A stretch of DNA of 64,000 nt from a virus (lineage: Duplodnaviria > Caudoviricetes). The translations under genes and the position numbers were made by a program. The notes beneath the pieces were generated by a model. It saw only the letters and a program-made list of their open reading frames with translations, did no database searches and was not told where the DNA came from. Shown here piece by piece: positions 13,659 through 39,074 of this stretch. Location: IMG/VR virus record IMGVR_UViG_3300032038_009890, positions 96,001-160,000 of that record; one strand, 5' to 3'. Position 1 is the stretch's first letter. Every line of letters starts with the position of its first letter.

Positions 13659-13670
13659 CTTATCCTCCTA

Positions 13671-14273: not shown

Positions 14274-16902
14274 TATTCTTTCTCCTTACAAAATATTTTC
14301 TTACAAAGTCAATAGGTACGATCAGCAGAGATAATCCACAGATCACAGCCCACTGCAAACCGCTTAGTGCAACACAACCCACGAAACTCTGCGCAAACTG
14401 TACAAGCGCAAAAGTAGAAGCGAAAATCAGGATTGCAATTACAACAAAGAGCGGGTTTTTACTAATTCCTTTGAACAAATTAAATCCATCAGTACGGATA
14501 TTAAACCCATTCACAACGGCCACAAAGATCAGCAGAGCAAACCTAGCAGATGCATATACTTCTTCTGTTGGGAAAATAGCTCTGATCTGTGGAACAAATG
14601 TCAGCCCAAAGATAGCTAAGAATCCCACGATAGAAACAGCAATCTGAGAGATGGTTTCTTTTGATAATAGCTTACTACCCTTTGGAATAGGTTTCTCTAG
14701 CATATACTCAGCCTTAGCAGGTTCCCCGCCGAAACTCAGGGAATTCAGCGAGTCCATTACTATGTTCACAACCAGAATTTGTGTTGCAGTCAGTGCTTCA
14801 ACAACAAGAATCAGCGGATAAAAGATACTCAATACTACCAAACCAATGTTAATAGGCAACTGGAACTTGAGAAATTTCATCACGTTGTGCATAAAGGTTC
14901 GGCCCAGAAGCACTGCTCTGGTAATAGAAACAAAATTATCATCTGTGATAATAATATCTCCCGCCTCTTTGCAGACATCTGTTCCACTTCCCATACTAAA
15001 ACCTACATCCGCACCTTTTAAAGCTGGCGCATCGTTACTACCGTCGCCTCCCATCCCACAACATATCTTACATTCCTGAGCTAACCTTACAACTCTTAGC
15101 TTAGTGTCAGGCGTAGCCCTAGCAATCACCTTAATATTCTTTAAGTTTTCCTTTACATATTCATCAGCAAGATTCGCAAACGTAGTTGCCGTAAAAGCCA
15201 GATCCTCGCTATTAGGCGTATAGATTCCGCAATCTGTAGCAATCGCAACAGCAGTATCAAGTACATCACCAGTAATCATCATCACCTGTACTCCCGCATC
15301 ATGCATCTGCTTTACGGCGTCAGGAACCTCGGGCCTAATATCATCTCGAATAGCCACAAAGCCAAGATATACTAAGCCGTCATTCATTTCATCTTCAAGA
15401 TCATATTCTGTTACAGCAAATGCAATACATCTCATGGCTTTAGATGTATACTTCTTGATCTCTGCTAATACCTTTTCCTTATCAAATTCTCCGTATTTTT
15501 CAACTTCGAATACTTGCGTACACTTTTCTAGGATCTTCTCAGGAGCGCCTTTATAATAAGTAGCTTTCTGTGTCTGTACAGCACTATACTTCCAAGCACT
15601 GTTAAACTCTTTCTTTTTAATTACCTCAGAACGATTAATAATCCCAATATGTTCTGTCGGAGAAGCCAAACTTAATAACGCTCTATCAGTTGCATTACCG
15701 CCAACAATATTTCCTTCAGAATCAAACGTAGAACTAGAATTCATCACAACGTTATTCATAATAACATTATACAATTTAGTTCCTTCTCTTATCTCGTCTC
15801 CATCATATCCAATCAGATGTACGGGCACTAGCTTGCCACCAGTCAACGTTCCAGTCTTATCCGTGCAGAGTAACTGAATATTCCCCGCTTCAGGAATCTT
15901 ATTTGCGTTCTTTGCCAGAACATTATTCTTAATCATTAAATTAGCATTTTGTGCTGTTAATATCTTGATGATAGCTGGCAATCCTTCTGGCACGGCAGCC
16001 GCTATAATAGTCAGAGCATTCTCAACAATTACGCCTAACCTTAAAAATACTTCCAAAACTCCAAGCGTAAAGAAAGAAGAGCATCCTCCAAACTTTAATA
16101 TCTCAGATGTGAGCAACACAACAAATACTATAATAGCTCCAATATATCCAAATTTAGAGATCTGGTCTGCCAAATCATCTAATTGAATCTGAAGCGATGT
16201 TTTCGTTTCTTCAATCTCATCAATGCTTTTAATTGTCTTTCCGTTTACAGTGCCGGGATAGGTTTCTGTGCCAATGCCGACATTCGTAACGACCATCTTA
16301 CCTTCGCCTTCAGTTACTAAAGTTCCGGCAAAAAGACTATATTCATCAGTATAATCATCGCCAGTAGGTACACGAGTCTGCGCATTATACGGGCATGTAT
16401 CATCTTCCCAGGCGATTTTTTTACAATCCTTAGATTCTCCGTTAAGTACAGAGTTATCAACCTTAAGATGACCATCAATAAGATAACCATCCGCATAAAT
16501 CTGTTCTCCGCTCTGTAACAGTACAATATCACCAACAACAAGGTCGTTTGTGTTAATGTTTTGTATATTTCCATTGCGTAAGACATTACAGAATCTAATT
16601 GATACCTTATCCTTTAACTTTTTTGTTTCTCGCTGATCTTTTAGCCCATTATATGTATTCAATCCAGCGATTATCAAAATCACGCATCCAAGACTCAAAG
16701 GTTCTGGTACTGACCCATGACCAATTATAGCCACGAAGACAAACATAACCATTAACAACAGTAACAGACGATTTATTTTATCCTGAAAAGTCTCCGCAAA
16801 AAACTTGTACCACTTCTTTAGCGGTTTCTCAGGTAACTTATTGGTGCCGTATTTCCTTCTTTGTTCTGCTACATCGGATTCTTTTAAACCCTCGTAATTC
16901 AA
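14266..16902 (-). CDS. P-type cation (Ca2+-type, P2) ATPase
   Basis: PEGL, DKTGT phosphorylation site, KGAPE, MITGD, GDGSND; multiple TMs. Confidence 0.92.
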
Positions 16903-16991: not shown

Positions 16992-19211
16992 TCATTCATA
17001 GTTTTCATAAAACTTATCCCGTAAAGTAATAATATCTAGTCCAAGCAGACTTTCTTTATCTTCCGTCTCGTCATACATCTTGCGAAGGAAACCATAAAAC
17101 TTATTATCAAGCTCATTGATCAACTGCCCAGTGCCCTCGATGTATCCGCGCCGAAGAGTAGTGCTTGCAATACTCCTCATGCGTTTCCAAAAATTATAGT
17201 ATTCGGTCTTAACTTTAAACATCAAATTTCCAGAGTCCTCAACGACAAAGCCTTCTACATATTCTCCAAGAAGTTTATATCCCTGCTTCTGTACCGCGCT
17301 ATACCACTCACAGAATTCTTCCCAATTGGTGATATTACATACCTTGCGTTTATGTGTTAATCCAAACTTAACAGCAAGGTCAACCATATCATTATAAGGT
17401 AATTTGTTAAACACAATATCATTCTTTACAATGTCAAGCAAAATGATATTATGATTCAAATATTTAATGATATGCGGGTCCTTCTCAGAATCTTCCACTT
17501 CAAATACGAAAGTACAATCATTATCTTTCAGATACTGAAGAATATTCTTACGAGCATCTTCTGTAGTTACCTCAAAGAAAATCTCCTTAAACCATCCTGC
17601 ATACTCTCCTCCTACCATAGATTTGGTACAGTAACGGAAATCATCTGCATACTCATCATATGAGAGCATTCCAAGGAATCCATTTTCTTTTACATATACA
17701 GATATTGGATACTTAATTACATCCTTTAATTCAGCAAACGTAGGGCAAATAGTACCATCTAAATAGGACATTTTCAAATATCCACGTGCACATACTTTGA
17801 TTCTATTTAGATCGATGAATAATCCTCTCGCATGGACTGTTAAATTATTCCAAATACCTTTCTTAAATGCATCACTTGAAAAGTTAAATGAGCTAATATT
17901 ATTCTCAAATTTCTTCTCGTGGATATACTTACTCGCTCTCATGTCAAGAACAAGCTTCGCCAAATCACTGGAGTTAAGCGCATTCTGAAGCTCGAACTCT
18001 TCTTTCTTACGGAATACCGTATTCTTAATCTCAATCGGCTTAAAGCCTTCGTGATCAAGCTCAACTACACGCAAACATCCGCCAAATTCAACCCTACCCT
18101 CCAGATTAAATACATGCGGAGTCACATGAATCTCAGATGCCTGTGTATTCCTGTGTCCGAAAATCTGATAAACTCCTCCAGACTTTTCTTCCCATGCGTT
18201 AGCCACGTCCAGATAATCTTCATATCTCCCAACACCCTTAATCATCTGCTCGGATGCGACTAAAGTCACGTTCTCGGGCATAAAAGAAATACCTCCATGA
18301 CAAACGAAGACTTCTTTATCATGGAATTTATACCAAGCACACTGAACAAGCTTATAATACAATCTGCTCAAATCTTTCTTATCAAAGTTGGCACTGTTCA
18401 GCTGATTCTTAGTCACCCATTCAAATTCACGGGACTTTGCAGGAATGTCATGTGCATAATTGTATATTGACACCTCATGGTTACCTGTTAGTAGTAATAC
18501 ATTTTTCTTATCTTTAATTTCAAGAAGATACTTAAGTACCTCAACATTCTCAACACCACGATCAAGATAGTCACCTAAAAAGATATAAAACACGTCATCT
18601 TCTAATTGACCGTGAAGATACTTCTGCAATACCGTATAACATCCATGCACATCTCCAATATGCACAATTTTCCGATAGTTAGACAGATCAATAGGTTTAA
18701 GCCAAATCTGTTCAATGTCTTCCCCTGTGACATTGCACGGGTCTTTAGGTTTAATCACAGTAATACCAGACGGCACTTTCTGCGTCTCAAACCGCGCATA
18801 CATTTTGTCATCTACGTCATCGGGAACCCTTTTAAGTTCCTCCCTCTGCGCATTCCGTGCTTTACATACATCAATCGGAATGCCAGTTAAATCAAGCAAA
18901 TAAATCCTATACCTATATTTAGACGCAAGATTCTTATACTTATTCATCTCTTCTGATTTAGAATTCGTTGCATCAATTACAGTAAACTCCCCTGCTTGCA
19001 TACGAATCTCTAAAAGCTTAAAGAGCATATCCCAGACCACTTTTTCATGACTAAAGCCAATCTGTACGGAGCCATTTGTGGTCTGTTGAGGAGACTGGCA
19101 CAGCATACGTATTTCATCTGCGCACAATCGATAATTTTCTAGTCCAAGCTTCCTGATAATGGTACTTTTCCCCGCTCCAGGAGCGCCTCTAAACAATAAT
19201 AATACTCTCAA
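16992..19211 (-). CDS. Pnkp-type RNA repair enzyme: polynucleotide kinase + calcineurin-like phosphoesterase + Rnl1-like ligase
   Basis: GAPGAGKS/DATN kinase; GDVHG, GDYLDRG, GNHE, HGG, GH phosphoesterase; KENG, EGFVV, FKVK nucleotidyltransferase. Likely TTG start at 19211 overlapping the upstream stop. Confidence 0.85.
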   Translation of the reverse strand: MRVLLLFRGAPGAGKSTIIRKLGLENYRLCADEIRMLCQSPQQTTNGSVQIGFSHEKVVWDMLFKLLEIRMQAGEFTVIDATNSKSEEMNKYKNLASKYRYRIYLLDLTGIPIDVCKARNAQREELKRVPDDVDDKMYARFETQKVPSGITVIKPKDPCNVTGEDIEQIWLKPIDLSNYRKIVHIGDVHGCYTVLQKYLHGQLEDDVFYIFLGDYLDRGVENVEVLKYLLEIKDKKNVLLLTGNHEVSIYNYAHDIPAKSREFEWVTKNQLNSANFDKKDLSRLYYKLVQCAWYKFHDKEVFVCHGGISFMPENVTLVASEQMIKGVGRYEDYLDVANAWEEKSGGVYQIFGHRNTQASEIHVTPHVFNLEGRVEFGGCLRVVELDHEGFKPIEIKNTVFRKKEEFELQNALNSSDLAKLVLDMRASKYIHEKKFENNISSFNFSSDAFKKGIWNNLTVHARGLFIDLNRIKVCARGYLKMSYLDGTICPTFAELKDVIKYPISVYVKENGFLGMLSYDEYADDFRYCTKSMVGGEYAGWFKEIFFEVTTEDARKNILQYLKDNDCTFVFEVEDSEKDPHIIKYLNHNIILLDIVKNDIVFNKLPYNDMVDLAVKFGLTHKRKVCNITNWEEFCEWYSAVQKQGYKLLGEYVEGFVVEDSGNLMFKVKTEYYNFWKRMRSIASTTLRRGYIEGTGQLINELDNKFYGFLRKMYDETEDKESLLGLDIITLRDKFYENYE

Positions 19212-19408
19212 AAAGCACTGCCTTCCCACCCGCATTCAAAGCATTTATAAATATGCTGTGGCGGATTTGTCATTAGTAATTGAAATTCATTACGATATAT
19301 GCGATTTTTACATATAGGACATTCAATCTTTGTATACATCCATTCCACTGGATTATTGATTGTATCATTCCTAAACTGAATATACTTATCCCACTCTATC
19401 ACCATCAC
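19208..19408 (-). CDS. Small Zn-ribbon protein
   Basis: CPIC...TNPPQ...CFECGW. Confidence 0.6.
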   Translation of the reverse strand: MMVIEWDKYIQFRNDTINNPVEWMYTKIECPICKNRIYRNEFQLLMTNPPQHIYKCFECGWEGSAF

Positions 19409-23403: not shown

Positions 23404-24294
23404 TTAATGTGCATATACATCTGCGTTGTGCAGAATCATAACGTCATCATAGAACTCAGTTCCGTATCTCTTAATAAATTTTCTTTCAGCCTTTTCATCA
23501 CCATTCCAGAAATATGGGTCCATATGATGGCACACAAGATTACTTACATATAGCGTATCAGCGTTATACTTTTCGCAAGCAAAGAATAATGTCTCATAGC
23601 CGCCCACATTATGATGATAATAGTAATGCACTCTTAAATCATCATCATAGCTCTTTGTATACGGTTTTCCGCAGTCATGTAATAATGATGCAACTGCTAC
23701 AGATATATCAGTATCCTTTTCACCCACATGTAGATAATGATTGTACACGTGATGAAACGTCATTGACAGATGCCTACCAAGCGAAGCAGTGTGATGCTTA
23801 GACTCCTGATTATATTGATCTAAAAAGAATGTCAGATCTGTGGGGTCTCCATTGGAGGTCATCCACTCGGACCTGTCGTAATGTATCCAAATCTCATCCC
23901 ACCCCTCCCAATAGCCGGGGGTATACCAAGATTCATAAGCCTCTTTGACGTGTTTCATTTCTCCAGAAAAGTTTTTACAGCAAATATTATAAGGTGTTGC
24001 AATGATAATGCAGATTTTATATACATCATTAAAACTGCCGACAACATTGTTAATTAGATACCTACGGCTCTTTTCTTTTACATTTGAAGCATCGACAACA
24101 CAATCACTGCCGCATGATATTATTGCCTTTATCTTATCATAATATTTATTGTATACTACTGTTTCGTCGGTGATTCCCTGATCATTTAATTTTTTCCTTA
24201 TATCACCAATTGATACAACCTCAGCCCCAATAGTACCTGCATAGGCACTTTTCCCAGAACCCGGAAGACCCACCATAGCATATAATTTAGGCAT
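23404..24294 (-). CDS. AAA_33 kinase fused to HD phosphohydrolase
   Basis: GLPGSGKS, DASN, EGW; HH...H, LHDCGKP, HH..VG, HHM, AD..AH. Confidence 0.85.
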   Translation of the reverse strand: MPKLYAMVGLPGSGKSAYAGTIGAEVVSIGDIRKKLNDQGITDETVVYNKYYDKIKAIISCGSDCVVDASNVKEKSRRYLINNVVGSFNDVYKICIIIATPYNICCKNFSGEMKHVKEAYESWYTPGYWEGWDEIWIHYDRSEWMTSNGDPTDLTFFLDQYNQESKHHTASLGRHLSMTFHHVYNHYLHVGEKDTDISVAVASLLHDCGKPYTKSYDDDLRVHYYYHHNVGGYETLFFACEKYNADTLYVSNLVCHHMDPYFWNGDEKAERKFIKRYGTEFYDDVMILHNADVYAH

Positions 24295-28069: not shown

Positions 28070-28208
28070 TACTCCCAGTTGGATTCGGACCAACGACACA
28101 CGGCTTAATCCTCGCTACTGGTTCTGCCCCAGTATTTCGAATTGCGTTTTCCTTAGTTAAACTAAGCGAAGTAAGGCCGCCGCTCTAACCTGACTGAGCT
28201 ATGGGAGC
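28070..28208 (-). tRNA. Interrupted tRNA (Ile-TAT or Lys-TTT) carrying a nested tRNA-like insert in its anticodon loop
   Basis: Outer GCTCCCA/TGGGAGT, D GCTC/GAGC, anticodon stem GCGGC/GCCGT, T-arm GTTGG-TCCGAAT-CCAAC; inner element at 28109-28171. Confidence 0.75.
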
Positions 28209-28969: not shown

Positions 28970-28974
28970 AGATT

Positions 28975-29000
28975 TAGCTTTTGAGCGGAGCTATAACCGC
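28975..29000 (-). ncRNA. H-type pseudoknot PK1 (preQ1-I-like)
   Basis: GCGG-TTA-TAGCT-CCGC-TCAAA-AGCTA. Confidence 0.55.
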
Positions 29001-29003
29001 AAC

Positions 29004-29078
29004 TAGGCACTGTACCACAAGCAGAAAGGAAATACCATATATCTTTGTTCTTCATAAAATATTTGCTGTATGTGCCTA
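29004..29078 (-). ncRNA. ACAGCAA-helix RNA element A
   Basis: TAGGCAC-ATACAGCAA...GTGCCTA. Confidence 0.65.
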
Positions 29079-29148
29079 TCAAATATATTTAGTTGTCTCA
29101 TTTAGAATAACCCCTACCTGCTCTCACAGTTTATTTATACTCATCATC

Positions 29149-29262
29149 TAGGTGCATATCTGCTCTAAGCAGAAGGGGTTATTACTTTTAAGTCGCAGAG
29201 TTTTCCGCTATATTTTCCTGTACATTATTGTAATGAAATTAAAATTTTGCTGTATGCACCTA
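29149..29262 (-). ncRNA. ACAGCAA-helix RNA element B
   Basis: TAGGTGC-ATACAGCAA...GCACCTA. Confidence 0.65.
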
Positions 29263-29264
29263 AA

Positions 29265-29378
29265 CGCATGGGACAGGGATCGAACCTGTATCTTTCGCGG
29301 GACAGGCGATATAATATTTGCTGATTATGACTATTGCTAGCCACGTTTTAACGTTCTAACCAATTAAACTACCCATGC
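29265..29378 (-). ncRNA. tRNA-Asp(GTC)-like RNA with inserted ACAGCAA-helix (element C)
   Basis: GCATGGG/CCCATGC with G73, D-arm, insert GTGGCTA-GCAA-TAGTCAT-AATCAGCAA, TCGC-CTGTCCC-GCGA, ACAGG-TTCGATC-CCTGT. Confidence 0.7.
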
Positions 29379-29381
29379 ATA

Positions 29382-29463
29382 GGGGAGGATGTAAGAAATC
29401 GAACTTATGAGTATATGCTGTAACTGTCTGCCTAGACAGTGCCACCCTTGGCTCCATCCCCCC
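29382..29463 (-). ncRNA. tRNA-like RNA whose anticodon arm is the ACAGCA-helix (element D)
   Basis: GGGGGGA/TCCTCCC, ACTGTCT-AGGC-AGACAGT-TACAGCA, TAAG-TTCGATTT-CTTA. Confidence 0.6.
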
Positions 29464-29471
29464 ATAAAAAC

Positions 29472-29580
29472 TAGATACCGTTTGACTTGGGCGCGACTCC
29501 AAGATTTCTCCCTAGGGGAGCGTCCTACGCATTTAGACTATATGTTCCGTGAAACATCCGATAACTGCTGTAGGTATCTA
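29472..29580 (-). ncRNA. ACAGCA-helix element E enclosing D/anticodon/T-like arms
   Basis: TAGATACC-TACAGCAG...GTCT/GGAC, CTCC/GGAG, CTTGG/CCAAG...GGTATCTA. Confidence 0.6.
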
Positions 29581-29584
29581 TATA

Positions 29585-31114
29585 TTAGATAATCCCTTTC
29601 AGCGCCGCATCAACGGCGTCATACCGAGGACTGTTAATAGTATCAAGTAAAACATCATACGGGTCCATACGATCACTCATGACCATCCGCAGAAGCTGAA
29701 CAGAAAAACCAGAGCAAAGTACAAGACCATTTTCATTTTTCTGCATCGGCATCGTCTTATCTACTTCTCCAGAGAGATTCCAGAAGATGATGCGAGGCAG
29801 TTTATATCCATGCATCTGATATTTACGAGAAATACTCTCAAAAATTGTATTAATCCTAGAAGGTGCATATACAGCTTGGTTAAACTGCATATCACTAAGG
29901 ATAATAACTCTGCTCGGCATCTCATCCTGCTTATAGCCATTACTAATAGCTGTTTGCAGAATAAGGTCCATCGTTTTCTCAATATCAGTATCTGCCACCT
30001 CGGAATGCTTAAAGAAATACTCGATCTTTTCGCGGAGGCTATTGCAGTTACTCAGGTCAAAAAACTTCGGCCTATTGGAAAAAGAAAGTACAAGATTTTT
30101 CCAATCGTCGCTGTTATGCTCCGACGTATAAACAGACAGAGCAATCGCAACATCAAAAGGTCTAACCTTAGTACGGTATCCAGGCTCACACATCGAGGAT
30201 GAGGTATCACATACTACAAGAGTATCTCCAATCCCCATCTGCGGCAATGCCTTCCACAGCTGTTCTAGCGTCTCATCATACGCATTGATGTTTGGCCTAT
30301 ACCAACTATAGCCATAGTTGATATAGCTATTGACGATCTCATGAGGCTGAAGCACACCTGCATTGATTTTAGTCTCTCCCTTTGTTAGCGACTGCAGATA
30401 AGTTGCGCGCCTCTCTTCGTCATGCCGCATAAAGGCCTTACCATAAATCAGGTTTGCCCTAGACGGCACAGCAGAGTAGTTGATCTCGCCCCATTTCTGC
30501 GCAGACATCTTTGACTCGACCAGATCGAGCGTCTTCCGCATGGCAGAAATCTTTTTTCTATACCTTGCAGGAGTAATGCCCCAAGCGTCAATAAAAATCC
30601 CTGCGTAACGTTTCGTCTCACGCGAAGATGCGACACAGCTAGGAAGCCACTTAACTAGTAAGCTGATCGGCTTACCTTCCTTCAGCGCTTCATAGTCCTT
30701 GTCAAGCTGAACGCCAACAAGGTCAATCACATCCTGCTTGAGCGGAGTATCCAGAAACGGCCATAGATCCTTCCATCGCCCGTACTCAGGGAATAGTGGA
30801 AGCAGTGCCTTAACCACGGCAGGACGATTTTCGACCAACCACTGCATACAGGTGATAAATGTCCTTCTCTCGCCCATGCCTTCACGACAGTCACGTAAGA
30901 AGAACAGGTATTTTACACCAACATGCGGATCCTCATAGAATGCCGCCTGATACATGTTGGCAATGTACTCTTCACTCTGCTCACGTAGTCCAGTCGTTGC
31001 GAAGTTAAAATCTAATAGCGCATGACCAGATGACTCATAGGCCAATGCACCGTTTTCAGTCAGCGTCTTCTGCTGATTCAGCTGACTTTTTAAACCAGTA
31101 GCAAACTTATTCAT
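29585..31114 (-). CDS. DUF2828-family TROVE/Ro60-like protein with C-terminal vWA domain
   Basis: TENGA, RDCREGMGER, EYGRWKDL, KWLPS, VPSRA, DTSSSM (MIDAS), SDMQF, FWNL. Start moved to ATG 31114 behind GAAAGGA. Confidence 0.85.
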   Translation of the reverse strand: MNKFATGLKSQLNQQKTLTENGALAYESSGHALLDFNFATTGLREQSEEYIANMYQAAFYEDPHVGVKYLFFLRDCREGMGERRTFITCMQWLVENRPAVVKALLPLFPEYGRWKDLWPFLDTPLKQDVIDLVGVQLDKDYEALKEGKPISLLVKWLPSCVASSRETKRYAGIFIDAWGITPARYRKKISAMRKTLDLVESKMSAQKWGEINYSAVPSRANLIYGKAFMRHDEERRATYLQSLTKGETKINAGVLQPHEIVNSYINYGYSWYRPNINAYDETLEQLWKALPQMGIGDTLVVCDTSSSMCEPGYRTKVRPFDVAIALSVYTSEHNSDDWKNLVLSFSNRPKFFDLSNCNSLREKIEYFFKHSEVADTDIEKTMDLILQTAISNGYKQDEMPSRVIILSDMQFNQAVYAPSRINTIFESISRKYQMHGYKLPRIIFWNLSGEVDKTMPMQKNENGLVLCSGFSVQLLRMVMSDRMDPYDVLLDTINSPRYDAVDAALKGII

Positions 31115-31128
31115 TACATTTTCCTTTC

Positions 31129-31209
31129 TAGACGCACAAATTTGATGGATTTGAACCATCTTAAAACACGTATGTTTTGTTATCCAGAATATTTTGCTGT
31201 ATGCGTCTA
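31129..31209 (-). ncRNA. ACAGCAA-helix element F with T-arm, abutting the DUF2828 RBS
   Basis: TAGACGCA-TACAGCAA...GATGG-TTCAAAT-CCATC...TGCGTCTA, then GAAAGGA. Confidence 0.7.
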
Positions 31210-31212
31210 TAA

Positions 31213-31331
31213 TCGAGAGAGGAGGAATTGAACCTCCGCTTGCGGACCCAAGGCGTCATAAATTTGCTGTTAGTGACTATTAAAGTCACGTTATAGACAT
31301 TTCCGCCGTACTACCACTATACCATCTCCCG
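31213..31331 (-). ncRNA. tRNA-Pro(TGG)-like RNA with inserted ACAGCAA-helix (element G)
   Basis: CGGGAGA/TCTCTCG with A73, GCGGA/TCCGC, insert GTGACT-TTAAT-AGTCAC-TAACAGCAA, CTTGGG, GGAGG-TTCAATT-CCTCC. Confidence 0.7.
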
Positions 31332-31337
31332 TAAAAC

Positions 31338-31404
31338 TAGGCGCGTTTTTTGGGTGTTAGTTTAAAAAGCTAATCCAGAAATTATGTTTTGCAGTATGCG
31401 CCTA
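31338..31404 (-). ncRNA. ACAGCAA-helix element H (ACTGCAA variant)
   Basis: TAGGCGC-ATACTGCAA...AAAC-GCGCCTA. Confidence 0.6.
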
Positions 31405-31408
31405 TAGT

Positions 31409-31568: not shown

Positions 31569-31572
31569 ATAT

Positions 31573-31604
31573 CTAGCTTTTTTTAAAGCGGAGCTAGAAC
31601 CGCT
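31573..31604 (-). ncRNA. Pseudoknot PK3 (closest to preQ1-I)
   Basis: AGCGG-TTCTAGCT-CCGCT-TTAAAAAAA-GCTAG. Confidence 0.6.
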
Positions 31605-31704: not shown

Positions 31705-31843
31705 AAATAAAGTAGTCACCACGATTTGTGACAATAAATCGATTCGTGGGTCGCAACACTGCGTGAACAATAGTTACTAGAGCGTGTTTGTGGTGACTAC
31801 CCAAGATATTGATACGACAGGTTTCAAAGTTGCCACGCTCTAA

Positions 31844-31905
31844 ATAGGACAGGAGGAATTGGACCTCCATCTGTCGAAACCGCTCTACCATTGAGCTATG
31901 TCCCA
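31844..31905 (-). ncRNA. Anticodon-less tRNA-like RNA
   Basis: TGGGACA/TGTCCTA, GCTC-AATGGTA-GAGC, anticodon arm reduced to GT-TTCG-AC, GGAGG-TCCAATT-CCTCC. Confidence 0.7.
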
Positions 31906-31909
31906 TTAT

Positions 31910-31949
31910 GCGTAGCTTTTGATAAAGCAGAGCTACGCTAGAACTGCTT
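31910..31949 (-). ncRNA. Pseudoknot PK4
   Basis: AAGCAG-TTCTA-GCGTAGCT-CTGCTT-TATCAAA-AGCTACGC. Confidence 0.55.
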
Positions 31950-31997: not shown

Positions 31998-32068
31998 CAG
32001 CGGATGCAGGTGATGCTCCTGCGCCTTTGGTGTCAAAGACCAACTTGCTACTGTTACACCAATCCGCT
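31998..32068 (-). tRNA. tRNA-Gln(TTG)
   Basis: AGCGGAT/ATCCGCT, TTGGT-CTTTGAC-ACCAA, G73. Confidence 0.75.
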
Positions 32069-32624: not shown

Positions 32625-32653
32625 ATTATACGCATATCCGACCCTCCTGTCAA
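32625..32653 (-). promoter_or_regulatory. Sigma-A promoter of the tRNA/ncRNA island
   Basis: TTGACA-N17-TATAAT. Confidence 0.85.
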
Positions 32654-32974: not shown

Positions 32975-33898
32975 TTAAAGATAGGCCCCATACTTCTGCA
33001 AATACATATACGGTATATTTGGTGACATATTGTATTGCGCGCGTAACTCATCAAAATGATTCATTACATATTGCTCTTTACTGATACCCAACTTCTCTGC
33101 ACGTCTAGTAATCATTGCAATCTGCCCAGACACAGCAATAGATGTGCTGTTGATGCCCTTATACAGGTTATAATTATCAGCAATCTGTTTAAGTATCTTT
33201 GCAACAATCTTATTATTATGCAAAGGATCGTTACTATACTGGTTAGCATTAGTAGCCTTCTTAAAGATATATTCAGATGCTCCTAAACGCTTCTTCTTCC
33301 CAGATACAACTAGCAGATACTCTAACTCAATATCTGCTTCTACTGCAACACTCACTAGCTTACTAGATACCTTAACTACGCGCCCAGTGCAAAGAGATAT
33401 AGTCAGATTCTTCTGATCAATATCAGAAAGCTTCATTTGCATTATCTCATCATAGTGCGATGTTTTTCCAAACTCAAAGAGACACAGCATCAGAAACTGA
33501 TCTCTTGGATTAACAATCCTCTCAACTACTTCATAAAATTCAATCTCATCAATATACCTTTTACTCTCCAGAACTTTGTTTATGTACATCGAGAAGTCTT
33601 TTGATGTAAATTCTGAGTAATGATTACATCCGTCCGGAACCAGTAACTGCTGATTGCACCACTCAGTATAACCGCTCAATCGACTATTAAGTGTTTTATA
33701 AACAAACTCATTAGAGTAGCAAAGCGCAGAGTAAAAATCTCCGATCTCACGGTTACTAAACTCGGCACAATCTCTGCCAAATAACTCCTCAAAAGGTGCG
33801 ACACGTATAAATGCCGACATAAGATTAGTTACATATGTAGGAGAGTACTTAGTCTCACATAAATCCAAATAACGTTGCTTCTGCTCGGCATTATACAT
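32975..33898 (-). CDS. Integrase-fold protein lacking the catalytic HxxR; SPbeta YopR/MrpR(SroF)-like master repressor
   Basis: MYN...K..YL start (ATG 33898, GGGAGG RBS), N.RD...L.FE.G, SI..SG.I; lies directly after the YopQ-like gene. Confidence 0.65.
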   Translation of the reverse strand: MYNAEQKQRYLDLCETKYSPTYVTNLMSAFIRVAPFEELFGRDCAEFSNREIGDFYSALCYSNEFVYKTLNSRLSGYTEWCNQQLLVPDGCNHYSEFTSKDFSMYINKVLESKRYIDEIEFYEVVERIVNPRDQFLMLCLFEFGKTSHYDEIMQMKLSDIDQKNLTISLCTGRVVKVSSKLVSVAVEADIELEYLLVVSGKKKRLGASEYIFKKATNANQYSNDPLHNNKIVAKILKQIADNYNLYKGINSTSIAVSGQIAMITRRAEKLGISKEQYVMNHFDELRAQYNMSPNIPYMYLQKYGAYL

Positions 33899-35126
33899 AA
33901 CCAGATACCTCCCGCAAAAGCTTAATAGCATATCTGTCAGCACTTACATTTAATATCTTTTTTTGATCGCTCTTGTATTCGTAGTTCCAAAGAATATTAA
34001 AAAGATCGATCAGTCTATCATCTTTTGGTTTTCCGTAATACTTGCAGATACAAAATGCAAAAATCCTGACTTCCGCAATGGTAAATATCCTGTTATCATC
34101 GAGTAGTTCCGTGTGCTCATCCGTGATGGCGTTAATCCCTCTCTCTAAGTCCCTGGGCACCGTAGCCAGGGCTTTTTTCTTTTCGTCATCGCTCATCTTT
34201 TTGATCAGGTCCTCGTTGATCATGTTAGCGAATGCGGAAAAATCCACCGCACCGCCATTGGAGATACGCCCTGCTAGGTTGCATGAGGACTCATTAATCC
34301 TGCGGACGATTTTAGTCGTAATATCACTTAGATTATACGACTTAATTGCATCCTTGGGAATAGGTGTATGTTGCTCCTCCTGCCAAATAAATTGGACAGC
34401 CTGATCATCTGAGAAGCACGTCAATCTAAGCTCCATGGGATAGTTAAAATTTGGGTCGGCATCTACTGCTTTCGTCAATGCTACAAGACGATGATATCCA
34501 TCCGTAAGGTCAAAGTATTCCAAACTGCTGATAATTAGCTCTTTTTTCTCCGCGTCGTAATAAAAATCAGCATCATCTGGTAAATTAACGGTAATCGTGT
34601 TAGGAATAAATTTTCCCTTAATAAAAAGATTCACCATAGCAGTAATTGCCTTCTCTTTGAGACTAATCACCCTGTAGGCAATACCGCCGCGAACCTTAAT
34701 AGCCAAGCGTCTTTGTATCTCCTTGTTGTAACGCAGTATATGCCCGCGCCATTTAACAAGCTCTTTTGCGCTGACTACACTAATCCATTGCGAATCAGTA
34801 ACCTGTAATGCAGAAAGTACAATCGGAAACTTAACTTGGTTACTCTCATTTTTGAGCTTAGAATACAAGCTTATCTCAGCATCCGTAAACCAGTCACTGA
34901 GGCGCACATGTTTGTCATTAAGGCAGTCCAAAATCCAATAAATCTCCACATCTTTAAGCTCGGCAATAGATGCACCCATCGACAAAATAGTTTTGGCGCG
35001 GAACATGGACATACCATACTTGTGGTAGGCACGAGTCATAACATCTTGCTGTACCTTTTTGTCTGTCACGGCTTTGGCGAGGATTTCTTCCAGGAACGCG
35101 TTAATCTCTCGCCTGTCTTTTTTCAT
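33891..35126 (-). CDS. DGQHR/DndB-like ParB-fold protein (YopQ-like)
   Basis: PNTITVN, DGYHRL, FIWQE motifs. Confidence 0.7.
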   Translation of the reverse strand: MKKDRREINAFLEEILAKAVTDKKVQQDVMTRAYHKYGMSMFRAKTILSMGASIAELKDVEIYWILDCLNDKHVRLSDWFTDAEISLYSKLKNESNQVKFPIVLSALQVTDSQWISVVSAKELVKWRGHILRYNKEIQRRLAIKVRGGIAYRVISLKEKAITAMVNLFIKGKFIPNTITVNLPDDADFYYDAEKKELIISSLEYFDLTDGYHRLVALTKAVDADPNFNYPMELRLTCFSDDQAVQFIWQEEQHTPIPKDAIKSYNLSDITTKIVRRINESSCNLAGRISNGGAVDFSAFANMINEDLIKKMSDDEKKKALATVPRDLERGINAITDEHTELLDDNRIFTIAEVRIFAFCICKYYGKPKDDRLIDLFNILWNYEYKSDQKKILNVSADRYAIKLLREVSGYV

Positions 35127-35290
35127 CGGCCCCACTCCTTTCTAAAACTCGATTTTACTATAGTAAACTATCTCCTGTCAATGTTAATATTGCACAAAAA
35201 CTAACGGAAAATCTCCCACATTTTCTCTCTTGACAAGCCCGGCTCAGGCGAATACTATTTATAACTGCCCTCGACTGATCAGTCCCTTAG

Positions 35291-35362
35291 TTATCCACAT
35301 TATCCACTCTATCAACACTTTCCACATTATCCACTTTGTCCACAACATCCACATTATCCACA
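35291..35362 (+). repeat. Eight abutting DnaA-box-like 9-mers, followed by an AT-rich tract (candidate origin)
   Basis: TTATCCACA, TTATCCACT, CTATCAACA, CTTTCCACA, TTATCCACT, TTGTCCACA, ACATCCACA, TTATCCACA. Confidence 0.8.
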
Positions 35363-35920
35363 TTCAAAACACATATACTAATACTCATAAATAATATATA
35401 CTATAGCATTATATAATTTACGCTATATAATTACACTATATTTAACACTATATACTATAGCGTTAATTACAGTATATACTTTAGTGATAAATATTAAAAA
35501 TCACCCTAAGCGCCAATATACACTAAAGCGTTAATTATATTAAATACTTTAGTGATATATTATAGCATACACTATAAAACCACCGAGTTTCTATAATCTA
35601 TATTATATAAATAGGGCTGACTTGCATCAGGTGGTGGATGAATACATGATAGACTCACTCCCGCATAATCTGCATCCTTCCCGACGCTCCAGAAGGCCTC
35701 TCTTTTGCACGTAAGCGGCCGTAGAGCCACCTCAAACGCCCCGCCCTAACAATTCTGCCACTGCAATCTCCTGCGCCTTCTGAGGCTGTTATATGCGAAT
35801 AATGTTTCCTTGCGTTTTGAGGGCCATACAGACCATCCTGCTCTGCACCCTAAGAAGATACCAACCAACTCCAAAGACAAAGAAAGAGGCCGTCTCTCTT
35901 TCGAAAGACAGCCTCTTCTG

Positions 35921-36010
35921 TTACGCTACACTCTGGAACTTCGGCCTCGTGATAATTGTCTGGTTTTCGTTGCGGTAAACGCTGTGGTCCTTAATCTTTG
36001 CTCTTACCAT
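35921..36010 (-). CDS. Monocistronic 29-aa peptide MVRAKIKDHSVYRNENQTIITRPKFQSVA
   Basis: GGGAGA RBS, own promoter (36100-36128) and terminator hairpin (about 35880-35920). Confidence 0.5.
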   Translation of the reverse strand: MVRAKIKDHSVYRNENQTIITRPKFQSVA

Positions 36011-36184
36011 TGCCGTATCTCCCACATTGTCAATGATCAGTTTTCGCCTACTGCTTAAGGATGAACCTTCTGCAGTGGCTGTTCTCTTGAACTGATATAA
36101 GTGTACACCTATATAGTTCCCCTGTCAACACTTTTTTGAAAAAAAATAAAATCCCCTCACCATCGAGGCGAGGGGGACTCCTGA

Positions 36185-36388
36185 TCACTTCCCAGACTGA
36201 GCAATGTCCCTACGGATAAGGTCTTTTATGTATCCCTGCTTGCCTCCCTCCGCCTTAGACATATCCTCCAGCCTATCTAAGATATCTTTATCTGTATTAA
36301 AATTAAGTTTAAGCTTAACCTGCGTCGTATTGGCATTGTCATATATCTTGTTAGCAATGCGCTGTGCCTCTGTGGTAGTGTGCGTCAT
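36185..36388 (-). CDS. Small ribbon-helix-helix-like DNA-binding protein
   Basis: LKLN...DKDIL..L.....KQGYIK.LIR.DI pattern; GGAGG RBS; terminator after the stop. Confidence 0.65.
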   Translation of the reverse strand: MTHTTTEAQRIANKIYDNANTTQVKLKLNFNTDKDILDRLEDMSKAEGGKQGYIKDLIRRDIAQSGK

Positions 36389-36786
36389 ATTATCTCCTCC
36401 TATCCCTTAATATACCACAAGAGCGCCGCATTAGACAACAAGTCCATACTCCCTGATCAGTCTCCGCATCACCATCTCATAACCATTCGCCTTCATGGTC
36501 CTGTCCACGTCCCTCTTACTATACGTCATTGCTCTAGCCCTCCTCTTTAGCGCGTGTTTCGCCTCTGCACCTCATCGTTGATCATCTGCATATACTTCTC
36601 AGGGGTAAGGGTGGGAGGCACCTCCCTGCCCTTGTATCTGTACAAATCAAGGTCCTTCCTCGCGGTATCAATATCCACCGCCGTGGTGACATGGGAAAAG
36701 ATTTCCTTCGCTAGTGCATATCCCATAATTAGTTATCCCCTTTCCGAGGCCCCAGGGCTATGCCTAGGAGCCTCTCTCAGCAGTGG

Positions 36787-37800
36787 TTATCCCTCGATGT
36801 GTGAAAACATCTTATCACCCATCAGCCTCGCGACCTTCTCCTGCTTTCTACGATTGTCGATGTAGCGAGTGGTCACAGAAACGCTCCCATGACCCGCTCT
36901 GTCAGCAGCGGCGTAGATATCACCAGTCTCCAGATAGGTATTGGTGATGCACGTAACGCGCATCTTATGCGGCGTGATGTGCTTGTCAAGGCCCTGCGTG
37001 TGCTTGCGAATCATCTTTTCGATGGTCTTCGCGGTAATCCGCTCACGGCCTTCACCGTTCTCGGAATTCCGCAGGAACAGGGCGGAGGTGGTCTTCTCTT
37101 CGCCGCGCTCGGCGAGGTAAGCCTTGACGAGAGCAATCATGTGTTCATCAAGACGGATCGTCCGCTCGTGGTGACCCTTTTCGATGACCTCCAGAGTGCA
37201 GTGGTCAAAATCAAAATCGTCCACATCAACCTCGGAGAGGGCCTGTGCGCGAAGCCCGCTGTAGCACCCAAGCATAAATAAGCACTCGTCACGCTTAGCA
37301 AACAAGGAATGTTCGCGGATGTGCTGAACAACCTTATTCATCTCATCGTAGGTCATGGCTACGACTTTATGCTCAGTCTTTTCCTTTGGGACGATTGCCT
37401 GAAGGTCCTCTAAGTCGATCATGGGGGACTCCTCGATGATCTTGCGCTTAACGAGGAAGTTGAAAAACTTATTCAAAGCGAAGTACACACCCTTGATGGA
37501 GTCATACTTTACTGGTTTTCGAGTGCCATCCTTAAGAAGCCGCACCTTGATCGAATCAAAAAACGCCGTAATAACATCCACGTCGATCATGGTCCAAAGG
37601 TCCTTATCAAATGTGTCGAAACCCTGCTCATCAAGCCAGGTAAAAAACCGCTTAACGTGGTTAAGGTTGACATTCTTGGTAGTCTTCTGGCTCCCGGCAG
37701 ATGTGGAGTAGTACGACCGCAGGATGGGCGGGAACCCCTCCAAACCCTCGATAGCCTTCTGCTCCAACTGCATCTCATGCTCAAACCTTCCAGATAACAT
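36787..37800 (-). CDS. Tyrosine recombinase (XerC/D-like; YopP-like)
   Basis: GLR, KG, HKMR, GH, TRY catalytic set intact. Confidence 0.9.
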   Translation of the reverse strand: MLSGRFEHEMQLEQKAIEGLEGFPPILRSYYSTSAGSQKTTKNVNLNHVKRFFTWLDEQGFDTFDKDLWTMIDVDVITAFFDSIKVRLLKDGTRKPVKYDSIKGVYFALNKFFNFLVKRKIIEESPMIDLEDLQAIVPKEKTEHKVVAMTYDEMNKVVQHIREHSLFAKRDECLFMLGCYSGLRAQALSEVDVDDFDFDHCTLEVIEKGHHERTIRLDEHMIALVKAYLAERGEEKTTSALFLRNSENGEGRERITAKTIEKMIRKHTQGLDKHITPHKMRVTCITNTYLETGDIYAAADRAGHGSVSVTTRYIDNRRKQEKVARLMGDKMFSHIEG

Positions 37801-37949
37801 TTCTCATTCCTCCTATGCGTTTGTTTAGATTACTTATCGCCTTGCAAGAAATATTTTACCCCCTCCCTCTCTGATTTGCAATAGGTAATTCTGCACAAAA
37901 AGTACCGGTCCCTTTTTGTACATATTGCACAAACCGCACAAAAGGATAA

Positions 37950-37976
37950 AAAAAAGAAGGGGCATTTGCCCCTTCT
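37950..37976 (-). terminator. Intrinsic terminator
   Basis: AGAAGGGGCA/TGCCCCTTCT followed by a U-tract. Confidence 0.75.
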
Positions 37977-37979
37977 CAT

Positions 37980-39074
37980 TTACCCCTCAACTGCCGTATC
38001 TGCGGCCTCCGTGGTCTCCGTAGCCTCTGCCGCATCCGTGGTCGCCGCGGTGCATCCGAGATTATGCTCGGCGCAGTAGGTATCAAAGCTCTCTCCCATG
38101 ATCATGATGCGCGCAGTGGTAAGATCCCTCTTGATGGACCCGGAAGAACAGGCCTTAGCATAGCCATCCCCCGGCTTCCTATCCTTCGTGAACACATCAA
38201 ACCACGCGCCAAATTCCTCGGGAGACACACCCATCCAGATGGCCTTTTTGGCAGTTACCATCACAATGGGGATGTTGATTTTCTTCAGGTTCTTATGCCT
38301 TTTAGTAAAAGCCTTGCCGAGATAGTCCACAATACTCTCCAGAGTCTTGGTGTTCTCCTCGCCGTAACCATCCCGCAGAGACGTAGCATAGTCAAACATA
38401 TCTGCCTCAGAGATAGTCTTGTACTTATAGTCGTTCAGCAAGGCCATGCCCTGGATAAGGGCAAGCTGATCAGCACTCCTGCGGTACTGGAGCGGAGAGA
38501 AGGAGCAGTACTCAGCAAAAAAAGGCTTTGCCAGAAGCCTACTAATAAGCTCCGCGGTCTCCCTGCCCATCTTTGCTTTGCTCCTCTGATTCTTGGTCAG
38601 AGCTACGCCATTGTTGAGGCGAAAGAACATCTCCTCGATTTCCTCGTCAGTAAAATCCTCCAGATTGATGCAGGAAAAGCTATATCTCTTAATAGCCTCC
38701 TGCACATCCACAGGGAGATCACAAAAATACTTCCCGGCAAGCTCAATTTCCTGCTTGCGGAACGTGATGGGCGGAACATCGTCCCCCAGAGGAAACTCCC
38801 CGTTGATGTAGCCGATCACTACGGTGATACGCTGTAATCCGTCAACAATCTCCATGCGATACAGCACCCTGCCATTTTCCTGCCCCAGAAGGGCCTTGGA
38901 GAAATAGAGGTACGGAATAACATAACCACACAGCATGGAGTGGATGAGCAAGCCCTTGCTATCCTCAGACCACTGGTCACTCCTACGCTGAAGGTAGCTC
39001 TCCTCCACAAGAGTGCCATCCTCGAGCATATCCATGATCTCAATGGTCGTAAATGAAACAACATTAATCTTCAT
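37980..39074 (-). CDS. DUF262 (ParB-like, GmrSD N-terminal) protein
   Basis: QR...W, LIHS, IP, VDGLQR, F.RLNNG. Confidence 0.85.
   Translation of the reverse strand: MKINVVSFTTIEIMDMLEDGTLVEESYLQRRSDQWSEDSKGLLIHSMLCGYVIPYLYFSKALLGQENGRVLYRMEIVDGLQRITVVIGYINGEFPLGDDVPPITFRKQEIELAGKYFCDLPVDVQEAIKRYSFSCINLEDFTDEEIEEMFFRLNNGVALTKNQRSKAKMGRETAELISRLLAKPFFAEYCSFSPLQYRRSADQLALIQGMALLNDYKYKTISEADMFDYATSLRDGYGEENTKTLESIVDYLGKAFTKRHKNLKKINIPIVMVTAKKAIWMGVSPEEFGAWFDVFTKDRKPGDGYAKACSSGSIKRDLTTARIMIMGESFDTYCAEHNLGCTAATTDAAEATETTEAADTAVEG

What the first reader, a model, noticed from the sequence alone, without database searches (positions are those of the whole stretch)
29004..31404. Candidate new RNP system: DUF2828 (TROVE/Ro60-like) gene flanked by eight covarying helix+ACAGCAA RNAs, some grafted into tRNAs
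Seen: five elements lie directly downstream (A-E, 29004-29580) and three directly upstream (F-H, 31129-31404) of the DUF2828 gene, all on the minus strand, and I found none elsewhere in the tRNA island. Each has a 6-8 bp helix whose (T)AG-starting strand is followed by an ACAGCAA-type motif. The helix sequence varies but always pairs (GGCAC/GTGCC, GGTGC/GCACC, GATAC/GTATC, GACGC/GCGTC, GGCGC/GCGCC, GTCAC/GTGAC, GACAG/CTGTC). It occurs in two circularly permuted forms: as the terminal stem of a free RNA (A, B, E, F, H; E and F enclose tRNA-like arms), or as a capped hairpin inside the anticodon region of tRNA-Asp-like, tRNA-Pro-like and generic tRNA bodies (C, G, D). Established: Ro60/TROVE proteins bind Y RNAs, and bacterial YrlA RNAs join a Ro-binding stem to a tRNA-like module. 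Inference: these are Y-RNA analogues for the DUF2828 branch, tethering the protein to tRNA mimics for RNA repair, decay or decoy roles. I do not recognise the motif as a named family.
Basis: partly seen in the sequence, partly recalled or inferred. Interest (0 to 1): 0.93.

Follow-up and report, generated by a model that had tools for sequence, protein, structure and literature searches.

The report
Phage Ro60-like protein with handle-tagged RNAs
A jumbo phage gene for a ring protein shaped like the RNA-binding autoantigen Ro60 sits among small RNAs that all carry one conserved "handle" (a short covarying helix plus ACAGCAA) attached to tRNA look-alike parts; the same pairing recurs in about 150 other phage and gut-bacterial loci, matches no Rfam family, and is most likely a new kind of Y-RNA-like particle.

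Summary
Family covariance models built only from other genomes recover seven of the eight elements: H, F, A, B and E as stem-closed RNAs, and G and C as capped hairpins inside tRNA bodies. D is a weak, degenerate copy. Nothing comparable occurs elsewhere in the 217 kb phage.

The handle has a fixed register, WAG-N6-ACAGCAA, on a 7-9 bp covarying helix. The helix is either open at the RNA termini or closed by a GNNA-type loop.

It travels with DUF2828:
- 153 of 160 DUF2828 loci carry it.
- It is almost always on the gene's strand (motif alone: 241 versus 0).
- In 17 phage records picked without regard to the protein, RNA and protein co-occur exactly (4 with both, 13 with neither).

The protein model matches Ro60/TROVE+vWA structures over its full length (Z 12-16.5). 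The best match is Thermus phage phiLo Ro60, which is known to bind phage Y-like RNAs.

Cargoes are tRNA-derived: anticodon arms, T arms, or whole tRNAs with the handle inserted into the anticodon stem.

Rfam and the papers searched hold no description. This scan has already noted the same system on other DNA.

The parts
31336..31406 (-). Element H: stem-closed handle RNA (UAGGCGC / GCGCCUA, motif ACUGCAA). Its cargo is an imperfect Lys(UUU)-like anticodon arm.
   Evidence: R1 42 bits; fold; orthologue in L289
31213..31331 (-). Element G: tRNA-like body (acceptor, D arm, T arm) with a 55-nt insert in the anticodon region. The capped handle hairpin plus ACAGCAA lies at 31258-31292, followed by a Pro(UGG)-like loop.
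   Evidence: Rfam tRNA 49.2 bits with 55-nt insertion; R3 29.4 bits, E 1.6e-5; ARAGORN with introns calls Pro(tgg)
31127..31211 (-). Element F: stem-closed handle RNA (UAGACGC / GCGUCUA). Its cargo is a hairpin plus a T-arm mimic (loop UUCAAAU). It ends about 13 nt before the DUF2828 start codon, directly at the ribosome-binding site.
   Evidence: R1 38.2 bits, not in the training set; fold z -4.3; compensatory C-G to U-A change in the L289 orthologue
29585..31114 (-). DUF2828 + DUF7788 protein, 509 aa: helical ring domain plus vWA domain with an invariant MIDAS DxSxS; Ro60-like fold
   Evidence: Pfam; PHROG phrog_850 'RNA-binding protein'; AF2 model pLDDT 81.5; Foldseek and VIA-align top matches are all Ro60; invariant D303, S305, S307
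29470..29582 (-). Element E: stem-closed handle RNA (UAGAUACC / GGUAUCUA, motif ACAGCAG) with an 85-nt three-hairpin cargo. It starts right after the stop codon.
   Evidence: R1 24.3 bits with filters off; fold
29382..29463 (-). Element D: doubtful member. A long bulged closing stem encloses a 7 bp hairpin plus U and ACAGCAU (29415-29440) and a weak T-loop-like hairpin.
   Evidence: By eye; R3 only 5.5 bits; no Rfam tRNA hit; fold not better than shuffles
29265..29378 (-). Element C: complete tRNA-like cloverleaf with an Asp(GUC)-like anticodon loop. The handle (GNRA-capped hairpin plus UCAGCAA, 29312-29347) is inserted between anticodon-stem positions 28 and 29.
   Evidence: Rfam tRNA 46.1 bits; R3 24.1 bits; stem reading UU|CGC with GCGAA from the sequence; same site in other loci
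29147..29264 (-). Element B: stem-closed handle RNA (UAGGUGCAU / AUGCACCUA) with an 89-nt cargo of three hairpins
   Evidence: R1 35.4 bits with filters off; fold z -4.7
29002..29080 (-). Element A: stem-closed handle RNA (UAGGCAC / GUGCCUA) with a cargo of the 'AACAAG' type seen in other phages
   Evidence: R1 37.9 bits (in the training set); fold
32625..32653 (-). Perfect sigma-70-type promoter (12 of 12) at the head of the minus-strand tRNA / handle-RNA / DUF2828 island. It is the likely start of a polycistronic transcript (inferred).

Best explanation
The DUF2828/DUF7788 protein is a divergent Ro60-type ring protein: a helical ring plus a vWA domain with a MIDAS site. The flanking RNAs are its Y-RNA-like partners.

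The protein most likely recognises a common handle. This is a 7-9 bp helix of free sequence with a conserved A-G at its far end. That far end is either open, with an unpaired 3' G, or closed by a GNNA-type loop. The single-stranded ACAGCAA follows directly on the same strand.

The handle is attached to exchangeable tRNA-derived cargo: an anticodon-arm mimic (H), a T-arm mimic (F), other hairpins (A, B, E), or a whole tRNA body (G, C).

The island is probably transcribed from one promoter and cut up together with the tRNAs. By analogy with Ro60 and Y RNA, the handle docks the RNA on the ring and the cargo brings in, or diverts, proteins that recognise tRNA. In a phage that carries its own tRNAs and a tRNA-break repair enzyme, the most likely targets are host tRNA-cleaving defence nucleases (decoy or bait) or tRNA repair and quality-control factors.

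Shown: the RNA family, its covariation, its linkage to the gene, and the Ro60-like fold. Inferred: binding, processing and function.
For: Fold:
- AF2 model pLDDT 81.5.
- The 13 best Foldseek PDB matches are all Ro60/TROVE, full length, E 2.6e-7 to 2e-4.
- VIA-align gives Z 16.5 to phiLo Ro60 (403 residues aligned) and Z 12-15.4 to frog, human and Deinococcus Ro60. vWA-only hits reach Z 10.5 or less.
- MIDAS DxSxS and many Arg/Lys of the helical part are invariant in 28 homologues.
- PHROGs names the family 'RNA-binding protein'.

Linkage:
- AG-N6-ACAGCAA occurs 241 times on the gene strand and 0 times on the other strand in 80 viral loci, with 127 copies in the 500 nt before the start codon.
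- Helix-closed modules: 410 versus 18 (viral) and 237 versus 35 (GTDB genomes). They occur in 79 of 80 and 74 of 80 loci, and 5 of the 7 empty loci lack upstream sequence.
- R1 on 20 whole phage records: 94 hits, about 80 within 3 kb of the single DUF2828 gene on its strand. The rest lie inside tRNA arrays.
- R1 on 80 untrained GTDB loci: 66 hits, all on the gene strand.
- In 17 records chosen by a DNA pattern alone, R1 hits and DUF2828 coincide exactly, 4 with both and 13 with neither. My own Fisher exact calculation gives about 4e-4.
- The nearest relatives from another collection show the same array.

Structure:
- On the untrained hits, 95.6% of cells pair versus 74% in shuffles, with 120 versus 33 double changes; slid controls pair 33-54%.
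- The hairpin form pairs 81.6% versus 63%.
- There is an orthologous compensatory change in F.

Cargo:
- 110 of 357 elements have a 7-nt YU-NNN-R-N loop on a stem (null 28, sd 4.6).
- Position 37 follows tRNA rules: G36 is always followed by G37, and U36 or A36 by A37 in 87 of 93.
- 192 of 275 hairpin modules lie in an acceptor plus T-arm body.

Precedent: Ro60 contacts mainly a conserved motif on the 5' strand of the Y RNA terminal stem, and YrlA carries a tRNA-like domain (PMC4201824). Phage phiLo Ro60 binds two phage Y-like RNAs encoded upstream of its gene (PMC12135203).
Against:
- By sequence the protein is not a TROVE member: there is no Pfam TROVE hit and no PDB sequence match.
- The handle motif differs from the Ro60-binding GGUCCGA / GNCGAA motifs, and Rfam YrlA and Y_RNA do not match.
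- About 15% of R1 hits lie in tRNA arrays tens of kb from the gene, so proximity is not obligatory.
- Repair partners are not conserved: an Rnl1-type ligase occurs in 3 of 20 carrier phages and RtcB in 0 of 20, and neighbouring protein genes differ between relatives.
- Elements next to the start codon could act in cis on the mRNA instead.
- D fails the family model.
Confidence: 0.7

Rival explanations
1. The handle is a processing or stability signal of phage tRNA-array transcripts, read by a host or phage RNase or another factor. DUF2828 merely tends to reside in tRNA islands.
For: Some R1 hits sit between tRNA genes far from DUF2828. The whole island here appears to share one promoter. The handles sit at RNA boundaries.
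Against: The peak is immediately on both sides of the gene rather than spread over the arrays. Prophage and GTDB loci with few tRNAs also carry the handle. Presence of RNA and protein coincides exactly in 17 unselected records. The capped hairpin form inside tRNA bodies is not at a boundary.
Confidence: 0.12
2. The elements are mainly cis-regulatory. The protein, or something else, binds copies in its own leader and trailer to control translation or mRNA stability, and free RNAs are not the functional form.
For: F ends at the ribosome-binding site, about 13 nt before the start codon, and E begins right after the stop. In most loci the last upstream element ends 20-100 nt before the gene.
Against: There are up to ten copies per locus, many more than a leader needs. 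Copies occur tens of kb away in tRNA arrays. Cargoes are elaborate tRNA mimics, including complete cloverleaves. This rival is compatible with autoregulation as a side role.
Confidence: 0.1
3. The inserts in G and C are short tRNA introns or mobile insertions that are spliced out, and the free elements are their relatives; DUF2828 would be a splicing or mobility factor.
For: The insertions lie in the anticodon region, and 45 of 156 handle-bearing tRNA bodies keep a complete anticodon arm split at positions 28/29.
Against: The inserts are 45-55 nt, far too short for a group I intron, and Rfam Intron_gpI does not hit the window. The site (28/29, or before position 32) is not the canonical 37/38. 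No splicing endonuclease or RtcB is present. About 100 of 156 bodies have no recognisable anticodon loop left.
Confidence: 0.04

Closest known systems
Ro60 (Rsr) with Y RNAs, especially bacterial and mycobacteriophage YrlA (Chen et al. 2014, PMC4201824)
   Same: A ring-plus-vWA protein encoded beside, and on the same strand as, several small RNAs. Each RNA has a closing stem, a conserved motif on or next to its 5' strand, and a tRNA-like module. Several different RNAs occur per locus.
   Different: The protein family is DUF2828/DUF7788, not TROVE by sequence. The motif is ACAGCAA after a free-sequence helix, rather than GNCGAA or GGUCCGA within the helix. YrlA keeps the acceptor, D and T arms and replaces the anticodon stem; here many cargoes keep only the anticodon arm or only a T arm. 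A permuted capped form is grafted into otherwise complete tRNAs. Rfam YrlA does not match.
Thermus phage phiLo Ro60 with Yrl1 and Yrl2 (PMC12135203; PDB 9KOP, 9L5Y)
   Same: It is the best structural match of the model (Z 16.5). It is a phage protein with partner RNAs encoded upstream of its gene, with binding shown experimentally, and is proposed to hijack host factors against defence.
   Different: The phiLo RNAs carry the CGAA motif in a stem-bulge-stem and are only two in number. They have no tRNA grafts. The phiLo protein is recognisably Ro60 by sequence.
Salmonella rsr-yrlBA-rtcBA RNA repair operon (PMC7790460) and phage T4 Pnkp plus Rnl1 against the PrrC anticodon nuclease (my own knowledge)
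   Same: A Ro60-type protein, tRNA-like RNAs and RNA healing and sealing enzymes in one genome. This phage has a kinase / phosphoesterase / Rnl1-type ligase 10 kb downstream on the same strand.
   Different: The ligase is not adjacent and is absent from most carrier phages (3 of 20; RtcB 0 of 20), so repair is at best a facultative partner.

Membership tests
Ro60 / TROVE protein family | Ring of helical (HEAT-like) repeats closed by a vWA domain | tested here: met
   The predicted model aligns over residues 14/30-502 to ten Ro60 entries, Z 12-16.5 with 391-416 residues aligned. Foldseek E is 2.6e-7. This rests on a prediction, not a solved structure.
Ro60 / TROVE protein family | MIDAS motif in the vWA domain | tested here: met
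   DxSxS (D303, S305, S307) is invariant in 28 homologues, as are T376/T381 and D408.
Ro60 / TROVE protein family | Sequence match to the TROVE domain (Pfam PF05731) | tested here: not met
   hmmscan at E 0.01 returns only DUF7788, DUF2828 and weak VWA_2. A profile search of PDB sequences finds no Ro60.
Ro60 / TROVE protein family | Binds Y RNA on the outer surface and misfolded RNA ends in the cavity | not testable with these tools
   There is no protein-RNA prediction tool and no binding data.
Y RNA / YrlA RNA family | Encoded within a few kb of the Ro60-type gene on the same strand | tested here: met
Y RNA / YrlA RNA family | Stem formed by the 5' and 3' ends with a conserved protein-binding motif at the 5' side | tested here: met
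   A covarying 8-pair terminal stem followed by an invariant ACAGCAA
Y RNA / YrlA RNA family | The motif is GGUCCGA / GNCGAAN0-1G (CGAA), or the RNA matches the Rfam Y_RNA or YrlA model | tested here: not met
   No Rfam hit other than tRNA at E up to 1 in the window and E up to 0.1 in seven other loci. The motif here is ACAGCAA.
Y RNA / YrlA RNA family | tRNA-like domain | tested here: met
   T-arm and anticodon-arm mimics well above the null, and whole tRNA bodies. The topology differs from YrlA.
tRNA introns (group I or bulge-helix-bulge type) | Group I catalytic core, or canonical 37/38 position with a splicing endonuclease | tested here: not met
   The inserts are 45-55 nt, there is no Intron_gpI hit in the window, the site is 28/29 or before position 32, and RtcB is absent.

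The most novel reading that the evidence does not exclude
The handle is a universal adaptor. It lets one Ro60-like ring hold a changeable library of anticodon arms, T arms and whole tRNAs. The particle would then work as a protein-held set of baits that trap or divert host tRNA-cleaving defence nucleases, or that mark the matching damaged tRNAs for repair. That would make it a modular, RNA-specified counter-defence system of tRNA-rich phages. The handle-bearing complete tRNAs (insert at anticodon-stem position 28/29) would be a new natural tRNA architecture.
Probability: 0.25. Interest if true: 0.9.

Novelty: new variant of a known kind. Interest (0 to 1): 0.8.

Why it matters
Ro60 and Y RNA particles are known from animals, some bacteria and a few phages, but their partners and purposes remain poorly understood.

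Here a protein family annotated only as DUF2828 turns out to be Ro60-shaped. It comes with a large, easily recognised RNA family that is in neither Rfam nor the papers searched, and that is present in hundreds of gut, rumen and environmental phages and prophages.

The cargoes are readable: anticodon arms with identifiable anticodons, T arms and whole tRNAs. The system therefore states which cellular machinery it addresses, which makes the long-standing question of what Y-type RNAs recruit directly testable.

It also reveals tRNA genes with a fifth arm at a fixed site, and it would improve the annotation of phage tRNA islands.

Tried and rejected
- blastn of the region against the phage collection found nothing.
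- A search of viral contigs with the single protein found nothing; an alignment was needed.
- A first loose helix-plus-motif scan of the genome was too permissive to be informative and was replaced by stricter definitions with opposite-strand and permutation controls.
- Requiring a strict Watson-Crick 7-mer partner found only 86 of 241 (permuted mean 10.6), because G-U pairs and register shifts are common.
- The pair statistics on A2 are circular, since those elements were selected for pairing. I rely instead on the untrained hits and the orthologue comparison.
- Model R2 came out without base pairs because MAFFT shifted the hairpins. R3 was built with a hand-given structure.
- The tandem-motif scan of viral contigs returned mostly chance matches: 11 of 80 stored loci had helix-closed copies. 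It served as an unselected control set.
- Literature searches for DUF2828, PF11443, UCP015417 and DUF7788 gave only incidental plant or proteome mentions.
- RtcB and Rnl2-type ligases are absent from this genome.
- The idea of an obligate repair cassette was dropped.
- ARAGORN intron mode gives inconsistent anticodon calls for the grafted tRNAs and was not relied on, except for G.
Full report
SETTING. The window is bases 96001-160000 of a 217 kb IMG/VR virus record. On the minus strand, a perfect sigma-70-type promoter at 32653-32625 heads a 5 kb island of tRNA genes and odd tRNA-like RNAs. One protein gene lies in its middle, at 29585-31114. The longer ORF listed starts inside element F. The ATG at 31114 follows a ribosome-binding site, and all homologues begin there. 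Pfam calls the protein DUF2828 plus DUF7788, with a weak VWA_2 match.

THE OBSERVATION. Read on the minus strand, A, B, E, F and H each begin with UAG plus four to six variable bases, then zero to two bases and ACAGCAA (ACUGCAA in H, ACAGCAG in E). Each ends with the exact complement of the variable bases followed by CUAG. G, C and D contain the same strand-plus-motif, but the complementary strand lies just upstream, giving a capped hairpin.

I built two covariance models from other genomes (described below). R1 recovers H (42 bits), F (38.2), A (37.9), B (35.4) and E (24.3). R3 recovers G (29.4) and C (24.1) as the two best hits of the whole window. D scores 5.5 bits and is not called a tRNA by Rfam. 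I keep it only as a degenerate candidate. R1 finds nothing else in the 217 kb genome below E 0.05.

THE RNA FAMILY. The protein has thousands of homologues. With an alignment of 28 of them (A1) I fetched 80 viral loci and 80 GTDB genome loci, each with 3 kb flanks and the gene on the plus strand.
- TACAGCA and ACAGCAAA are hugely enriched on the gene strand, just before and just after the gene.
- The sequence-only pattern AG-N6-ACAGCAA occurs 241 times on the gene strand and never on the other, with 127 copies in the last 500 nt before the start.
- The distance from WAG to ACAGCAA is nine bases in the great majority.
- A MAFFT alignment of 92 short elements (A2) shows a 60-70 nt RNA. It has an 8-9 bp closing stem with nearly invariant G at stem position 3 and a nearly invariant unpaired G after the 3' strand. 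ACAGCAA is invariant, and the interior is A/U-rich and variable.

The A2 elements were chosen for pairing, so their pair counts are circular. The fair tests are these:
- R1 on the 80 GTDB loci, none of which was used for training, gave 66 hits, all on the gene strand and mostly at 2200-2980 or 4500-4900. On those hits 95.6% of cells pair against 74% in shuffles, with 120 double changes against 33, and slid controls pair 33-54%.
- The orthologous array in the closest relative shows a clean C-G to U-A compensatory change in the F stem.

THE TWO FORMS. Hairpin-form modules are as common as terminal ones. They are the only form in a large Lachnospiraceae-associated group that R1 misses. Their alignment (A4) has the consensus 5' strand ending CUU, a loop that begins with G and ends with A, then AAG, the rest of the 3' strand, two bases and ACAGCAA. 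The helix covaries: 81.6% of cells pair against 63% in shuffles.

LINKAGE TO THE GENE.
- Counting any ACAGCAA or ACUGCAA with an adjacent closing helix gives 410 modules on the gene strand against 18 on the other in viral loci, and 237 against 35 in genome loci. Of the loci, 79 of 80 and 74 of 80 have at least one, and five of the seven empty loci lack upstream sequence.
- On 20 whole phage records (about 3 Mb), R1 gives 94 hits at E below 0.01. About 80 lie within 3 kb of the single DUF2828 gene, on its strand.
- The others form second clusters which, in the four cases examined, lie in the gaps of arrays of 18-25 tRNA genes.
- As a reverse test, I scanned viral contigs for two motifs in tandem. 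Most matches were chance. In 17 of these records searched whole, R1 hits (E up to 0.001) and DUF2828 are present in exactly the same four and absent from the same 13.
- Two relatives from another collection show the same arrays directly before the gene and nowhere else in 21 kb.

THE CARGO IS tRNA-DERIVED.
- Of 357 unique terminal elements, 110 hold a 7-nt loop of the form YU-NNN-R-N on a stem of four or more pairs, against 28 (sd 4.6) after shuffling.
- These split into T-loops (UUCRANN) and anticodon-type loops (mostly CU-NNN-AA). Among 362 elements from all 160 loci, 94 have an anticodon-arm mimic, 60 a T-arm mimic and 22 both.
- Position 37 follows the rules of real tRNAs. G36 is always followed by G37, and U36 or A36 is followed by A37 in 87 of 93 cases. 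The commonest triplets are UUU, UGA, GUU and GCU.
- Of 275 hairpin modules, 192 lie inside a body with a 7 bp acceptor stem, a D arm and a T arm.
- Of 156 unique such bodies, 45 keep a complete anticodon arm whose 5' strand is split after two pairs. The module is therefore inserted between positions 28 and 29.

In this window:
- C has the position 28/29 architecture (stem UU|CGC with GCGAA, loop CUGUCCC).
- G has the module between the anticodon stem and a Pro-like loop.
- F carries a T-arm mimic.
- H carries an imperfect Lys-like anticodon arm.
- Long tRNA hits of 115-134 nt recur before the gene in other loci.

THE PROTEIN. The AlphaFold model built from A1 has pLDDT 81.5 and pTM 0.73.
- The 13 best Foldseek matches in the PDB are all Ro60 or TROVE entries aligned over the full length.
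- VIA-align gives Z 16.5 and 15.4 to the Thermus phage phiLo protein, and 12-14.6 to frog, human and Deinococcus Ro60. vWA-only proteins follow at Z 10.5 or lower.
- The MIDAS DxSxS is invariant.
- PHROGs labels the family 'RNA-binding protein'.
- By sequence it is not TROVE.

WHAT IS KNOWN.
- Ro60 binds Y RNAs mainly through a conserved motif on the 5' strand of the terminal stem.
- Bacterial and mycobacteriophage YrlA RNAs lie within 4 kb of the gene on the same strand and contain a tRNA-like domain (PMC4201824).
- phiLo Ro60 binds two phage RNAs with a CGAA motif encoded upstream of its gene, and forms complexes with host PNPase (PMC12135203).
- Jumbo phages are known to carry TROVE proteins among their RNA-repair genes (PMC7824862).
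- None of the papers found mentions DUF2828 in this role.
- Rfam 15 returns only tRNA for the window and for seven other loci.

The layout is therefore that of a Ro60 and Y RNA system, while the protein family, the handle and the cargo topology are different.

FUNCTION. The context suggests tRNA conflict. The island holds a dozen tRNAs. On the same strand, 10 kb downstream, lies a 747-aa kinase / metallophosphoesterase / Rnl1-type ligase, and a kinase-plus-HD protein lies 5 kb downstream. These are the enzyme types that phage T4 uses to mend anticodon-loop breaks (my own knowledge).

However, an Rnl1-type ligase occurs in only 3 of 20 carrier phages and RtcB in none, and neighbouring protein genes are not conserved. 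I therefore commit to the particle (confidence about 0.7), and only tentatively (about 0.25-0.3) to its role as a display of tRNA parts that baits or diverts host tRNA-directed enzymes.

A purely cis-regulatory or processing role is a weaker rival. Autoregulation through F, which abuts the ribosome-binding site, may coexist with the main role.

EARLIER NOTES OF THIS SCAN. After reaching the above reading, I found that the scan holds 73 notes of the same pairing in at least 70 other genomes. They agree with my reading but are not independent evidence.

Noticed in passing
window 28070-28208 (-): A tRNA (Rfam 48.9 bits) with a 67-nt insert in the anticodon loop. The insert folds into two hairpins and has no ACAGCAA handle; it is a different kind of insert from G and C.
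   Followed up: partly
window 31777-31842 (-): A stem-closed RNA with the same UAG...CUAG ends (9 bp stem), but GCAACUU where ACAGCAA would be. It is possibly a decayed or variant handle RNA. R1 does not hit it.
   Followed up: no
window about 28973-28995, 31571-31600 and 31909-31937 (-): Three copies of a similar hairpin (UAGCUCCGCU ... AAAAGCUA) lie between RNA genes of the island, perhaps as processing or terminator-like signals.
   Followed up: no
window 16992-19235 (-) and 23404-24294 (-): A trifunctional RNA repair enzyme (P-loop kinase, calcineurin-type phosphoesterase, T4 Rnl1-type ligase) and a separate kinase-plus-HD protein, both on the same strand as the island.
   Followed up: partly
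window 12442-14273 and 14266-16902 (-): Three TerD-domain genes in a row, next to a P-type cation ATPase. This is an unusual cargo for a phage.
   Followed up: no
window 31844-31905 and 31998-32068 (-): Two short tRNA hits (62 and 71 nt) that Rfam finds but ARAGORN misses. The island holds several non-canonical tRNAs.
   Followed up: no
window 32975-39074 (-): Two integrase-type genes (MrpR-like and Phage_integrase), a phrog_5732 gene (a DndB-domain gene in the syntenic relative L289) and a GmrSD-type nuclease lie just upstream of the island. The arrangement is syntenic with the closest relative L289, which also has a LAGLIDADG homing endonuclease inserted right after its DUF2828 gene.
   Followed up: partly
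L224, L209, L217, L236, L225 and other loci (upstream of DUF2828): Complete tRNAs with the handle module inserted between anticodon-stem positions 28 and 29 and an intact anticodon loop (GUU, UGU, GAU and others). This is a conserved fifth-arm tRNA architecture.
   Followed up: partly
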